DNA of 64,000 nt, from positions 33,356,001 to 33,420,000 of the forward strand of contig OZ024754.1 of assembly GCA_964016885.1 (NCBI GenBank), read 5' to 3'. This document shows positions 26,053 through 59,053 of the stretch, one piece after another. The translations under genes were made by a program, and so were the position numbers. Numbering within the stretch: the stretch's first letter is position 1; each line of letters opens with the position of its first letter. This DNA is from Eledone cirrhosa. Taxonomy: Eukaryota. The notes under the pieces are model-generated. The model searched no databases, was not told the DNA's origin, and was given only the letters and a program-made list of their open reading frames with translations.

Positions 26053-26328
26053 ATATTATTCCAAATAATAATAAATGAAGACATTCACATAATCAAGATA
26101 TATGTCTTATTATATATATTTCAGAGGCACTGGGTTGTTTTTTCAGTACGTCCTCGCCAATACTGGAATTGAACTATCAAGACCGTTGAGATATGTCATA
26201 CATCAATTCATGTATTTTATCTGATGAGGACGTACTGAAAAAACACCACAGTACCTTCGAAATATATATAATAAAACATATATTTTGATTATGTGAATGT
26301 CTTCATTTATTAATATTCTGAATAATAT
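26053..26328 (+). mobile_element. Hairpin element (family A-related) with type I hammerhead at 26211-26280
   Basis: ~100-bp imperfect arms 26053-26155 / 26226-26328; TTTTAT-CTGATGA-GGACGTACTG..CAGTACCTTC-GAAA-TATATA-TA-ATAAAA. Confidence 0.8.
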
Positions 26329-26332
26329 TAAT

Positions 26333-26520
26333 AACTGTTTCTACTTTAGACACAAGGCCAGCAATTACCCAGTACATTACTGGTACTTTATTTTATCGAC
26401 CCCGTAAGAATGAAAGGCAAAGTTAACCTCGGCGAGATTTGAACTCAGACTGTAAAGGGACGTAACTATGCTAGAAAGCATGGCGTCCAACCCTCTACCG
26501 ATACTGCCAATTCACCGCCC
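26333..26520 (-). mobile_element. S1 SINE (short form), inverted relative to the 25721 copy
   Basis: Reverse complement of full S1. Confidence 0.9.
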
Positions 26521-26628
26521 ACTGAATAATATTAATAACGCCAGAAAACTTCATTGTAGAGTGCTTTTAATCTATTGTAAACTATATTCATTGAGTAATC
26601 AAGGAACCATATTAATCTTTGGTTATAT

Positions 26629-28200
26629 GGTTGGAGGGTCACTGATGAAGGACTCACTTTTTCATATGTATCCCATTTGCAACGCCGCAGCTCCATTATT
26701 ATCATCATATTTACACATATTACTTTTCCATGCTGCCTTCGTCTGTTCCTTGTATCTTTACCACTTCTAGCAGTCTCTCTCCCTCTCTGTTACCCTCTCC
26801 TCAACTTTCACTCACTCATTCTCTGTCACTACCTCTCCTCCTCCTCTTTCCTCCTCCTACTTCAAGTTTGACCTGTGTGTAATTCTTTTCTCGCGCAGTC
26901 TTGACCGAGCTGGTATGGAATTTTTTTCTCTCTCTCTTTCGTCTGTGACTTCACAAAACTTGCGTTTACCGATTTCGCAGACCAGACCACCTTATCTTCT
27001 TCTTCTTCTTCTTCTTCTTCTTCTTCTTCTTCTTCTTCTTCTTCTTCTTCTTCTTCTTCTTCTTCTTCTTCTTCTTCTTCTTCTTCTTCTTCCTCTTCTC
27101 TCCTTTCTCTGTCTCTCTCTCTCTCTCTCTCTCTCTCTCCCTTTTTCCCCCCGTCAAACTTGGGCGAAATTCTTTCCTTGCTCACATTTCTACCAGGTTC
27201 GATGGTCTTTCGTCTCTTGTTCACGATTTCACAGAGTTTATATTCATAGAGATCTGGGACTTGTCTATTTCTACTCACTTTCCGTTGCTTAAACCCTTTT
27301 TGTTGTTACTCTAGCGTCCCCCTTTATTTACGTGTCCCAACGACTTTTTTTAGCCGTTGTTCGCACCACCCTGAGGCATATGGCCCTTAAAGCGATGAAA
27401 TGCCGAGGACGGTTGGAGGGTCACTGATGAAGGACTCACTTTTTCATATGTATCCCATTTGCAACGCCGCAGCTCCATTATTATCATCATATTTACACAT
27501 ATTACTTTTCTATGCTGCCTGTCTGTCTGTTCCTTGTATCTTTACCACTTCTAGCAGTCTCTCTCCCTCTCTGTTACCCTCTCCTCAACTTTCACTCACT
27601 CATTCTCTGTCACTACCTCTCCTCCTCCTCTTTCCTCCTCCTCCTTCAAGTTTGACCTGTGTGTAATTCTTTTCTCGCGCAGTCTTGACCGAGCTGGTAT
27701 GGAATTTTTTTCTCTCTCTCTTTCGTCTGTGACTTCACAAAACTTGCGTTTACCGATTTCGCAGACCAGACCACCTTATCTTCTTCTTCTTCTTCTTCTT
27801 CTTCTTCTTCTTCTTCTTCTTCTTCTTCTTCTTCTTCTTCTTCCTCTTCTCTCCTTTCTCTGTCTCTCTCTCTCTCTCTCTCTCTCTCTCCCTTTTTCCC
27901 CCCGTCAAACTTGGGCGAAATTCTTTCCTTGCTCACATTTCTACCAGGTTCGATGGTCTTTCGTCTCTTGTTCACGATTTCACAGAGTTTATATTCATAG
28001 AGATCTGGGACTTGTCTATTTCTACTCACTTTCCGTTGCTTAAACCCTTTTTGTTGTTACTCTAGCGTCCCCCTTTATTTACGTGTCCCAACGACTTTTT
28101 TTAGCCGTTGTTCGCACCACCCTGAGGCATATGGCCCTTAAAGCGATGAAATGCCGAGGACGGTTGGAGGGTCACTGATGAAGGACTCACTTTTTCATAT
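26629..28200. repeat. Tandem duplication: ~782 bp + ~751 bp + ~39 bp partial unit
   Basis: GGTTGGAGGGTCACTGATGAAGGACTCAC starts at 26629, 27411 and 28162; the units differ mainly in (TTC)n length. Confidence 0.95.
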
Positions 28201-28485
28201 ATATATATATATATATATATATATATATATATATTGGGTCATCAAGTATAAAATTTGTAGAAATTTGTAGAAAAAAAAAAATTCTACAAATCTCATTCTT
28301 GACTACACAATATATATATATATGTGTATGTGTGTGTGTGTGAATTATACGTATGTGTGTGTGTGTGTGTTTGTGTGTGAATTATATATATGTGTGTATG
28401 TGTGTGTATTATATATATATATTTGTGTGTGTATTATATATATATATATGTGTGTGTGTGTGTTTGAATTATATATGTGTGTATT

Positions 28486-28667
28486 TTGGCAGTATCGGCA
28501 GAAGGTCGGACGCCATGCTTTGCAGCCTAGAGTTACGCCCCTTTACGGTCTGAGTTCAAATCCCGCCGAGGTTAACTTTGCCTTTCATCCTTACGGGGTC
28601 GATAAAATAAAGTACCAGTAATGTACTGGGTAATTGCTGGCCTTGTGCCTAAAGTCGAAACAATTAT
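28486..28667 (+). mobile_element. S1 SINE (short form)
   Basis: Matches the other S1 copies. Confidence 0.9.
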
Positions 28668-56324: not shown

Positions 56325-56892
56325 TAATGCCAGCATTGGAGTGTCTGGCCACTTTAATAACCATAACAAAACCGGTAGCCATAATAGCAATAATAGAAAC
56401 CAGGATAATAATCATAGTAAATGCAATAATATCAACAATATCAACATTATAGAGCCTAACTACGGCATTAATAGTGGAACTGGCGACCAGGACAGGAACC
56501 ACCGCAACGATAACAACAGCTATAGAAGGGGCCATAATAGGAACAGCAGAAATAACACCATGTCGCAAAGCTATATCTGTAATAATGCTAACGGAAACAA
56601 TGACGACAGTGGTGATAGTGGCAATGATAATAGTAATGGTAGCAGCGGACCTCGCGCCATTAGAAGTAACAACAAAAAGCATTGCAATTGCCGAAACCCC
56701 AACAATTGTCCGCTCCAGGGCCACTGCTTGATTAGAAACGTAATCTACAAATGCACCGTGACGAGTAATAATAGCACTAGGTCATACATAGGCGCCCACT
56801 TCTAATGAGTTCAAGACTAGATTTAGATGGCATCTCCACTCCTTTAGAAATAAGAAGCTCAGATTCTCTATCTCCCTCGTTAATTATATTAC
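56325..56892 (+). pseudogene. PLE GIY-YIG endonuclease fragment with an Asn-rich linker, frameshifted
   Basis: HCNCRNPNNCPLQGHCLIRNVIYKCTVTSNNSTRSYIGA, then a frameshift to SNEFKTRFRWHLHSFRNKK..SLVNYI. Confidence 0.8.
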
Positions 56893-57005
56893 ACTACTAA
56901 CCCAAACATTGAACACACCCCGCTTCAGCTATTGGCATTTAGTAATCTATATCGCATCTCTCTGTATCTCTCTGCTTCCTCCTCTCCTACGATACTTGTA
57001 CCCTA

Positions 57006-57190
57006 TGGATTGGCAGTATCGGTAGAGGGTCGGACGCCATGCTTTGACGCATAGAGTTACGGCCCTTGCCATTCTGAATTCAAATCCCGCCGAGGTTAAC
57101 TTTGCCTTTCATCCTTACGGGGTCGATAAAATAAAGTACCAGTAATGTACTAGGTAATTGCTGGCCTTGTGCCAAAAGTAGAAACAATTA
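57006..57190 (+). mobile_element. S1 SINE (short form)
   Basis: Matches S1. Confidence 0.9.
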
Positions 57191-58420
57191 TTAATATTAT
57201 TATATATATATATATTATATATATATATATATATATATATATATATATATATATATATAGAGAGAGAGAGAGAGAGAGAGAGAGAGAGAGAGAGAGAGAG
57301 AGAGAGAGAAATAGTAACACAACAGTTAGTTCACCATTGTTCTCGGTATAGTGAACTAACTGTTGTGTTACTACTTCTAGCAAACTCGTCCCATGGACTG
57401 AGTGAAATACCACTACGGATATATGTATGTATATATATATATGTGTGTGTGTGTGTGTGTGCATATATATGTATGTATATATATATATGTGCATATATAT
57501 GTATGTATATATATATATATATATATACATATATATGTATTTATATATATATATATATATATATATATATATATATATATATATATATATATATACATAC
57601 ATATATATACATATATATGCATATATATATATATATACATATATATATATACATACATATATATGCATATATATATATGCATATATATATATATATATAT
57701 ATATATATATATATATATATATATATATATATATATATATATATATATATATATATAAATATGGTGCTGACTTCTTATCTCTATAAAAGATGCATTTTAT
57801 ATAAAAGTACTCCTACATTTTGAATCTTACTGAAGAGAACATGTGTAATTGGTTTCCCAGTTTGTCGTTAAATGTTTAGGAAGGACTTCCATTTTATTTG
57901 AAAGATTTGACTTACATGTTGATAGTTCTAAGTATAGGAAATGCTGAATTTGGCTTCTTTGGTTTCTGTTTTCGGGCTTATTTTCTATTTTGTGTGAGTA
58001 ATACGTCGATTCTAAGCTAACTTTTGAAATGTGAGGCCTTGACTGCTAGGCAAGTAGCAGACATGTGAGTTCTTCTTTGTAAACCATTGATCTTAAAGAG
58101 ATATAAGATATTTTCCACTTTATTTTAAGGACAATCTTTCTCGTAAAAGAAGAAAAGATAAACCCGAAAAAGAAGAAAGATGATAAAAAAAAATGGGGTA
58201 GGTGGCTAAGTGTGTTGAGGGGGGGGGGGGGGTAAAGAAGTTATTAGGTAGTAGATAGGCGGAAATGGCGGAGAGGGTGACAGTGATACGCGGAGACGAA
58301 AGATTTTGTTCATGGAGAAATATATATATGTGTGTGTTTGTGTGTGTGTAAGACTGCACGTTATTGACCCGACAATAAATAGGTAGATACGATTATATAT
58401 ACATATATATATATATATAC

Positions 58421-58582
58421 AAATGGCTTCTACCGGACTAGAGCTGTTTCATTCGAAGGAAATCCTCAGGAAATCTTTCCTGTTGATTTCCTTCGAACGA
58501 AACAGTTCTAGTCCTGTAGAAGCCATTTTTAAATTAAATATTTATACTCTGCTAGTATTGAGTACCCGAATGAACCCGGAAT
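58421..58582 (+). mobile_element. Family 2 hairpin with back-to-back hammerheads, plus tail
   Basis: Arms 58421-58473 / 58476-58528; cores CTGAGGA (minus) and CTGTTGA (plus); tail contains GTATTGAGTAC. Confidence 0.82.
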
Positions 58583-58788
58583 ATACATATGTATACATAT
58601 ATATATATATATATATATATATATATATATATATATATATATATAGGAGGTGAGTTTTATATATATATATATATAGGAAGTGAGTTTTATATATATATAT
58701 ATATATATATATATATATATATATATGTATATGTGTGTGTGTATGTGTGTGTGTGTGTGTGTGTGTGTGTGTGTGTGTGTGTGTGTGT

Positions 58789-59053
58789 AGAAGTTATATT
58801 TAATTTGTTGGAATTCCGACAAACATAAATGCTTATAACTGATATAGAGCACTCAACAGATAACTGGAGTAAATATTCCAAGATATTAATAAATGGAAAC
58901 TATATTTATAAAACCATATTTATTTTATGATATATATTTCAAGGGCGACCAAGCCAATCTTGGTGCGCTTTCATCAGATAAAATACAAAATTTGTTTTAT
59001 AAATAACGACATAACCATGGAAATCAACCTTAACGGTTGAAAATTCGCTGGAT
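58789..59053 (-). mobile_element. Family A element, colinear form, with intact hammerhead at 58921-58985
   Basis: Minus strand TATTTTAT-CTGATGA-AAGCGCACCA..TGGTCGCCCTT-GAAA-TATATA-TC-ATAAAATA followed by the tail. Confidence 0.85.

What the first reader, a model, noticed from the sequence alone, without database searches (positions are those of the whole stretch)
26211..58985. Hammerhead core conserved while stem II covaries across copies
Seen: four related motifs keep TATTTT(A/C)T-CTGATGA and GAAA-TAT(A/G)TA-T(A/C), but their stem II sequences differ and each still pairs: GGACGTACTG/CAGTACCTTC, AGGCATACCA/TGGTATCCCT and AAGCGCACCA/TGGT(T/C)GCCCTT. Stem III is a 2-bp stem with a palindromic loop (ATATATAT). 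Known: such minimal hammerheads tend to cleave as dimers. Inference: the structure was under selection in the source elements.
Basis: partly seen in the sequence, partly recalled or inferred. Interest (0 to 1): 0.7.

Follow-up and report, generated by a model that had tools for sequence, protein, structure and literature searches.

The report
Hammerhead ends of Hydra Penelope retroelements
These five motifs are hammerhead-ribozyme sequences at the ends of a known kind of jumping gene (Hydra-type Penelope elements) with over 50,000 copies in this genome; their variation points to the fold having been preserved in the parent elements, while cutting, likely as pairs, is predicted and untested.

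Summary
There are five complete motifs (26221+, 46914-, 47051+, 54045-, 58937-) plus a truncated inverted one, and stem II always carries an unpaired C·C. They are type I hammerheads in the pseudo-LTR ends of a Hydra-clade Penelope-like retroelement. Relatives sit around RT + GIY-YIG ORFs with Hydra motifs and insert in (TA)n. The genome holds 40,114 exact-pattern copies, plus 14,330 with another base at the free position 7. Only 735 alter essential G5 and 288 have C or G at position 17. Seven of nine stem II pairs covary. This supports selection in the source elements, not in these stubs. Stem III is unstable as a monomer and self-complementary, which fits dimer cleavage. One extra result: all four sense copies, and 22 of 104 pattern-found copies, begin within 3 nt of an Inr-like TCACT. 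They were likely copied from RNA not cut at the ribozyme. Penelope hammerheads, dimer cleavage and uncut templates are published, and this scan noted the same kind of element elsewhere in this genome. Verdict: new member of a known kind. Cleavage is untested.

The parts
26213..26278 (+). Type I hammerhead, GGACG stem II subfamily; core 26221-26227 and 26259-26262; predicted cut after 26270
26156..26328 (+). Sense pLTR stub, starting at +3 of the family's TCACT motif; followed by another repeat at about 26326-26515
26053..26155 (-). Inverted, truncated copy of the same end (stem II, GAAA, stem III present; CUGAU missing), next to (TA)n
46766..46961 (-). Inverted copy with hammerhead (core starts at 46954, predicted cut after 46906) and the ~90-nt tail, ending in (TA)n; 98.2% to L051
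46962..47147 (+). Sense stub starting exactly at the A of TCACT; GGTACGTC donor-like motif at 47005; hammerhead core 47051; predicted cut after 47099; private C at 47049 breaks one stem I pair; ends in (TA)n; 99.1% to L051
53987..54163 (-). Sense stub (AAGCG subfamily) starting at +2; donor-like motif at 54123; core starts at 54085; predicted cut after 54037; ends in (TA)n
54164..54266 (+). Inverted tail of the same insertion, next to (TA)n
58788..59054 (-). Sense stub with tail, starting at +2 right after (TA)n; core starts at 58977; AUC site, predicted cut after 58929; ends in (CA)n

Best explanation
The five motifs are type I hammerhead sequences in the short, (TA)n-inserted ends (pseudo-LTR stubs) of a very abundant Hydra-clade Penelope-like retroelement family, and they likely cut only when two copies pair through the self-complementary stem III, probably with protein help. 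Shown: the motif, its carrier elements, the copy counts, and the pattern of variation. Inferred mechanism: Pol II starts at the Inr-like TCACT about 65-90 nt upstream of the core. The RT primes in nicked (TA)n DNA at two internal RNA sites about 50 and 140 nt past the cut site, which gives the optional tail and the inverted second copy. It copies through the usually uncut ribozyme and often runs to the RNA 5' end, leaving stubs. Only source elements were under selection for the fold; window copies now drift. Cleavage, when two ribozymes meet, would trim tandem transcripts to unit length.
For: Carrier: the window's 46766-47147 insertion is 98-99% identical to both ends of L051, which holds an RT-EN ORF. 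The 54045 and 58937 copies are 92% and 87% identical to the pLTRs of L063, where a 390-bp direct repeat flanks ORF pieces with a weak GIY-YIG hit (E 1.5e-4, 22.4 bits vs cutoff 22.6). A 97% relative of the 26221 copy flanks an ORF 59-70% identical to P0002 (L142/L186). Among the longest frames of 25 loci, DK(T/G) occurs in 14, CxCX5C in 21 and (R/K)W(K/R) in 5. CxxC and CxH flank the conserved E and N. These are the Hydra traits of PMC8557442. Selection: G5 altered 735, N7 altered 14,330, position 17 C/G 288, against a base count of 40,114; the backwards control gave 0. Covariation: 7 of 9 stem II pairs, score 0.365, 0/500 shuffles, slid controls at most 0.16. RNAalifold recovered stem II with the C·C gap unaided. 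Dimer energies. 5' pile-up: 22 of 104 copies start at 0..+3, and 22 of 43 within ±30 nt. A donor-like GTAYGT lies about 40-45 nt downstream, like the intron 46 nt after the D. virilis Penelope start (PMC2377424). Two RT start sites and unprocessed RNA as the main template are shown in vitro for another PLE (PMC11167929).
Against: No cleavage or RNA data. Rfam gives no hammerhead match. Pair 10.1-11.1 is G-C in only 4 of 113 copies (A-U 79, G-U 21). Stems I and III show no two-sided change. RNAalifold prefers a fold in which the stem I 5' strand pairs with GAAAUA, which would be inactive. That fold is lower in energy than the monomer hammerhead in 5 of 5 window copies. Three stem II switches fall on one long branch, and a 7-row clade broke pair 8. 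The inner-versus-tip contrast has p=0.08. Pfam and PDB did not recognise the long ORFs as RT, so the Hydra call rests on motifs and on comparison by eye with published alignments; I built no protein tree. Units are 3.7-4.2 kb, against 'generally <3 kb' for Hydra. The TCACT motif was picked after seeing the data, and copies are not all independent (20 of 87 loci).
Confidence: 0.85

Rival explanations
1. Many stubs are not abortive copies of full elements. They are a non-autonomous, SINE-like RNA of about 280 nt (TCACT start to tail end) that is transcribed from stubs and mobilised in trans by the Hydra protein.
For: There is a sharp 5' pile-up at +0..+3, and all four sense window copies start there. 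Penelope's promoter is internal (PMC2377424), so stubs could keep it.
Against: Inversion junctions differ among 20 relatives of the 54045 copy. Stubs are 98-99% identical to ORF-bearing elements, so priming in the upstream pLTR of a full RNA explains them equally well. A TATA-like box upstream of the start in the GGACG subfamily would be lost from stubs.
Confidence: 0.3
2. The motif is kept as a protein-binding or structural element, or as a weak relic, and does not cleave in vivo.
For: A rival inactive fold is stable. G-C at 10.1-11.1 is rare. In another PLE, ribozyme mutants still insert, and no RNA-seq ends were found at the cut site (PMC11167929).
Against: The variation follows hammerhead chemistry: N7 is free while G5 and H17 are constrained.
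Confidence: 0.12
3. Conservation and covariation reflect common descent of a few founder sequences, not selection.
For: Several switches share one branch, and the inner-versus-tip test gives p=0.08. The search pattern itself fixes the core.
Against: The G5 and N7 counts free one position at a time and differ about 20-fold. Eight two-sided switches fall on about 6 branches of a tree built without stem II.
Confidence: 0.05
4. They are monomers of a non-LTR retrozyme that replicates as a circular RNA.
For: A type I hammerhead with a palindromic stem III is shared with retrozymes, which are proposed to derive from PLE pLTRs (bioRxiv 10.64898/2026.07.22.740005).
Against: There is no head-to-tail array in the window. 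Copies are solo or inverted, carry the PLE tail, and match ORF-bearing elements.
Confidence: 0.05

Closest known systems
Hydra-clade C-terminal EN+ Penelope-like elements (Craig et al. 2021, PMC8557442; abstract passages, section 11, supplement part 2 and passages), including Hydra-1_Obim
   Same: RW(K/R), DKT, CxCX5C linker, CxxC/CxH, (TA)n insertion, 3' hammerhead, pLTR with inverted copy and tail.
   Different: The hammerhead differs from all Hydra hammerheads in File S2: longer stem II with C·C, and AUAU(A/G)UAU stem III. Units are 3.7-4.2 kb, the tail is about 90 nt (30-40 bp typical), and there are over 54,000 pattern matches.
Metazoan PLE minimal/dimeric type I hammerheads (Cervera and de la Pena 2014, PMC4209133; parts 1-2 of 4 read)
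   Same: Long helix II, tiny palindromic helix III, mostly solo or inverted copies, subfamilies full of compensatory changes, predicted dimer cleavage.
   Different: Stem I is 8 bp. G10.1-C11.1 is rare. The C·C in stem II is invariant. The count exceeds the ~9,000 quoted there for Xenopus tropicalis, though the search methods differ.
Poseidon PAc of Anolis (Frangieh et al. 2024, PMC11167929; parts 1-2 of 4 read)
   Same: Two internal RT start sites give the tail; templates span the uncut ribozyme.
   Different: Different clade. There the ORF starts inside the hammerhead; here the ATG lies about 200 nt past the cut site.
Drosophila virilis Penelope and Adineta vaga Pen2a pLTRs (PMC2377424, PMC3846280; passages)
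   Same: Start site in the pLTR, an Inr-like TCACT (A. vaga), and a splice donor about 46 nt after the start (D. virilis).
   Different: Here the start site and intron are inferred only. No conserved acceptor was identified.

Membership tests
Type I hammerhead ribozyme | Core CUGANGA, GAAA, A15.1-U16.1, NUH | tested here: met
   5 of 5 window copies
Type I hammerhead ribozyme | Stems I, II and III can form, ends in stem I | tested here: met
   97.4% of cells paired in 24 copies; stem II covaries; stems I and III show no two-sided change
Type I hammerhead ribozyme | N7 free while G5 and H17 are constrained | tested here: met
   14,330 vs 735 vs 288 against a base count of 40,114
Type I hammerhead ribozyme | Self-cleavage at NUH | not testable with these tools
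   no assay
Rfam hammerhead families | Match to a curated model | tested here: not met
   none listed at E<=10
PLE dimeric hammerhead (PMC4209133) | Short palindromic helix III, unstable as monomer | tested here: met
   +4.7 kcal/mol hairpin vs -2.2/-3.2 duplex
PLE dimeric hammerhead (PMC4209133) | Conserved G10.1-C11.1 with an extra base after A9 | tested here: not met
   first stem II pair A-U 79, G-U 21, G-C 4 of 113; this is a common trait there, and Hydra hammerheads in File S2 also depart from it
EN+ Penelope-like element | pLTR-ORF-pLTR, inverted 5' copy, optional tail | tested here: met
   L063, L111, L112, L116, L120 direct repeats; L051-L053 inverted; tail
EN+ Penelope-like element | Single ORF with RT and C-terminal GIY-YIG | tested here: met
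   motifs; Pfam GIY-YIG only weak in L063; no Pfam RT hit for the long ORFs
Hydra clade | RWK, DKT, CxCX5C, CxxC/CxH, no two cysteines inside GIY-YIG | tested here: met
   RWR, DKT, CNCRNKSNC, CDLC, CRH; one Cys between VVY and YVG
Hydra clade | GxKF/Y not conserved; length generally <3 kb | tested here: inconclusive
   GxKF-like at the expected place in 6 of 25 frames; units 3.7-4.2 kb
Hydra clade | Insertion into (TA)n | tested here: met
   window copies and most of the 20 relatives aligned
Hydra clade | Placement in the RT phylogeny | not tested
   compared by eye only with published alignment rows
Non-LTR retrozyme | ORF-less head-to-tail monomers, each with a hammerhead | tested here: not met
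   window copies are solo or inverted stubs; not surveyed genome-wide

The most novel reading that the evidence does not exclude
The ~280-nt pLTR stub is a self-transcribed, SINE-like RNA whose hammerhead is held off by a built-in switch: the stem I strand sequesters GAAAUA until dimerisation or the element's protein refolds it. The invariant C·C in stem II would be an undescribed tertiary or protein contact. The 54,000+ genomic copies would then be a natural mutational scan showing what PLE ribozymes are selected for.
Probability: 0.2. Interest if true: 0.6.

Novelty: new member of a known kind. Interest (0 to 1): 0.3.

Why it matters
The role of hammerheads in endonuclease-bearing Penelope elements is still called unclear (PMC8557442), and in vitro they are dispensable for insertion (PMC11167929). 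This family gives a simple genome-scale argument that the ribozyme is still selected in source elements: N7 varies about 20 times more than G5. It also shows that many copies were likely made from uncut RNA. Young ORF-bearing copies and many natural stem II variants make the dimer and switch ideas testable. The class of element and of ribozyme is already described.

Tried and rejected
Rfam scans gave only microsatellite-driven miRNA hits and chance matches; no twister or HDV-like match appeared at the 5' boundary, an idea raised from a recalled resemblance. The repeat finder was swamped by (TA)n. Sequencing runs: no RNA holder listed. Laying four contig sets of unrecorded kind on L120:6300-7450 showed no splice joint and much higher depth over the pLTR than the ORF; neither is used as evidence. 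A second 5' peak at +44 was rejected as reference divergence. The idea that the inverted-tail-plus-stub unit at 54045 spread as one piece was rejected because junctions differ. Pfam on 25 window frames found only a low-complexity repeat, and tblastn of P0002 found no ORF in the window. PDB and Pfam searches with the long ORFs were uninformative. The protein atlas did not answer. Lunse et al. 2016 (PMC5785218) is not held; I saw it only as cited in PMC6765202. Paper searches found no description of this family's hammerhead, of the C·C, or of the 5' pile-up. The supplements of PMC4209133 and of the bioRxiv preprint were not read and may bear on this. The 3' C of the C·C was counted only in the sample, not genome-wide.
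Full report
1. Observation. The pattern CTGATGA-N(10-40)-GAAA matches 8 times in the window against 0.64 expected. Five matches form one family: 26221+, 46914-, 47051+, 54045-, 58937-. The two near 47 kb are an inverted pair. A sixth, truncated inverted copy lies at about 26053-26155. Each motif reads as a type I hammerhead: an 8-nt stem I strand, CUGAUGA, a 10-position stem II, GAAA, an 8-mer AUAU(A/G)UAU, H17, then the other stem I strand. Rfam did not detect it in four targeted scans.

2. Carrier. The window is part of a 3.0-Gb genome rich in (TA)n; its repeats looked octopus-like to me (recalled, not tested). 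Inverted pairs of the motif 3-4 kb apart flank long ORFs. P0001 had 77 scored genome matches at 86-100% identity. In the longest frames of 25 of those loci, DK(T/G) occurs in 14, CxCX5C in 21 and (R/K)W(K/R) in 5. The printed proteins read RWR, SDKTNNLY, FDITMGSSDSAQVTDLVG, GLYRDD, CNCRNKSNC, VVY..YVGST, CDLC and CRH. These are the features listed for the Hydra clade (PMC8557442 section 11), and the proteins follow the published Hydra alignment rows by eye. Pfam and PDB did not recognise the long ORFs; only L063 gave a weak GIY-YIG hit. The single octopus Hydra family in that paper has a different hammerhead. pLTR-ORF-pLTR units of 3.7-4.2 kb occur in L063, L111, L112, L116 and L120. Window copies link to such elements at 98-99% (47 kb pair to L051), 92% and 87% (54045 and 58937 to L063), and through a 97% relative for 26221 (L142/L186, ORF 59-70% to P0002). 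The window itself holds no such ORF, only stubs.

3. Selection. The exact family pattern has 40,114 genome matches and its backwards control 0. I then freed one position at a time. G5 altered gives 735 matches, spread over subfamilies. Position 7 altered gives 14,330, with recurrent G, A and C subfamilies among the 100 rows listed. Position 17 as C or G gives 288. The 5' C of the stem II C·C altered gives 1,996 of 40,114, many of them C-to-T at CpG in the rows listed. Position 7 is the free core base of hammerheads (established knowledge), so this is the pattern expected if source elements needed the ribozyme and inserted copies decay neutrally (inference). The AUC at 58929 is therefore a private variant.

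4. Covariation. In 113 copies, stem II positions 2, 3, 5, 6, 9 and 10 each alternate between Watson-Crick types, and position 4 is C·C in 103. I aligned 32 hand-picked representatives of those 113: 5 of 5 inner stem II pairs changed on both sides. In the 24 without the bulge, 7 of 9 did, with 0/500 shuffles reaching the score and slid controls far lower. Shuffles ignore relatedness, so I mapped pairs on a tree built from flanks only (65 distinct stem II sequences). It gives 8 direct two-sided switches on about 6 inner branches, three of them on one long branch. C·C has 0 inner and 6 tip changes. One 7-row clade broke pair 8. Changes ended in a pair on 16 of 20 inner branches and 17 of 31 tips (p=0.08), with ties broken in favour of pairs. 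Stems I and III vary only by wobble or not at all.

5. Folding. The stem III 8-mer costs +4.7 kcal/mol as a hairpin and gains -2.2 to -3.2 as a self-duplex, as expected for dimer-type hammerheads (PMC4209133, parts 1-2; PMC6765202, passages). RNAalifold recovers stem II with the C·C gap but pairs the stem I 5' strand with GAAAUA. That inactive fold is lower than the monomer hammerhead in 5 of 5 copies, and within about 3 kcal/mol of the stem I+II fold. It may be an off state or a by-product of AU richness. It shows no informative covariation.

6. Where stubs begin and end. Long copies share (T/C)CACT(A/G)(T/C)C 64-91 nt upstream of C3. I scored 104 copies found by the hammerhead pattern alone, in 87 loci. 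Of these, 33 run more than 30 nt past the motif, 3 start at -30..-1, 22 at 0..+3, 18 at +4..+30, and 28 later, many of the last through reference divergence. Twenty of 87 loci have a start at 0..+3. The motif was chosen. All four sense window copies start at 0..+3. A GTAYGT motif lies about 40-45 nt further on in nearly all long copies (63 of 66 read GGTAYGTC). D. virilis Penelope has its intron 46 nt after the start, and an A. vaga pLTR has an Inr-like TCACT. I infer a transcription start. 3' ends cluster about 50 and 140 nt past the cut site, matching the two RT start sites and tail shown for Anolis PAc, where unprocessed RNA is the main template. Copies that run from there through the cut site to the start were likely made from uncut RNA.

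7. Comparison and novelty. Hammerheads in PLE pLTRs, their covarying subfamilies, dimer cleavage and low activity are published (PMC4209133), as are Hydra elements in an octopus (PMC8557442). Six paper searches did not show this family's motif, the C·C or the 5' pile-up; one key paper (PMC5785218) was not held. Earlier notes of this scan describe Hydra-type hammerhead ends elsewhere in this genome; I reached the Hydra reading before seeing them. It works like a PLE dimeric hammerhead and meets the Hydra motif tests; cleavage and tree placement are untested. Verdict: new member of a known kind, interest 0.3.

Noticed in passing
window 54354+, 58469-, 45042-: A second hammerhead-like family: short stem II, a 4-bp stem III with an 8-nt loop containing CUAG, and a UA site followed by GAAG that can pair with upstream CUUC.
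   Followed up: no
window 16548+: A third minimal hammerhead-like motif with a GAAA-looped stem II and a palindromic AGUACU stem III, resembling Hydra magnipapillata Penelope hammerheads in File S2 of PMC8557442.
   Followed up: no
window 26326-26515, 25722-25912 and at least 8 other places: A ~190-bp dispersed repeat, SINE-like by recall, flanks the 26221 insertion on both sides in inverted orientation.
   Followed up: no
L123:1449-1568 and other GGACG long copies: TATATAAA about 32 nt upstream of the TCACT motif in this subfamily only.
   Followed up: partly
L063:6809-6940 and other long copies: The first ~50 nt after TCACT fold into a hairpin closed by UA(U)CC/GGGUA in most folded examples, with differing inner sequence.
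   Followed up: partly
L120:7040-7170: The motif GTTGAG(T/C)GCTTTA occurs twice, in the tail and again just before the ORF start.
   Followed up: no
L112:4500-5250: A pLTR-flanked copy with an in-ORF deletion after the RWR region and a near-identical copy in L116.
   Followed up: no
window 1213-6451: A long G-rich, strongly skewed tandem stretch (GC skew about 0.88) that gives spurious open frames.
   Followed up: no
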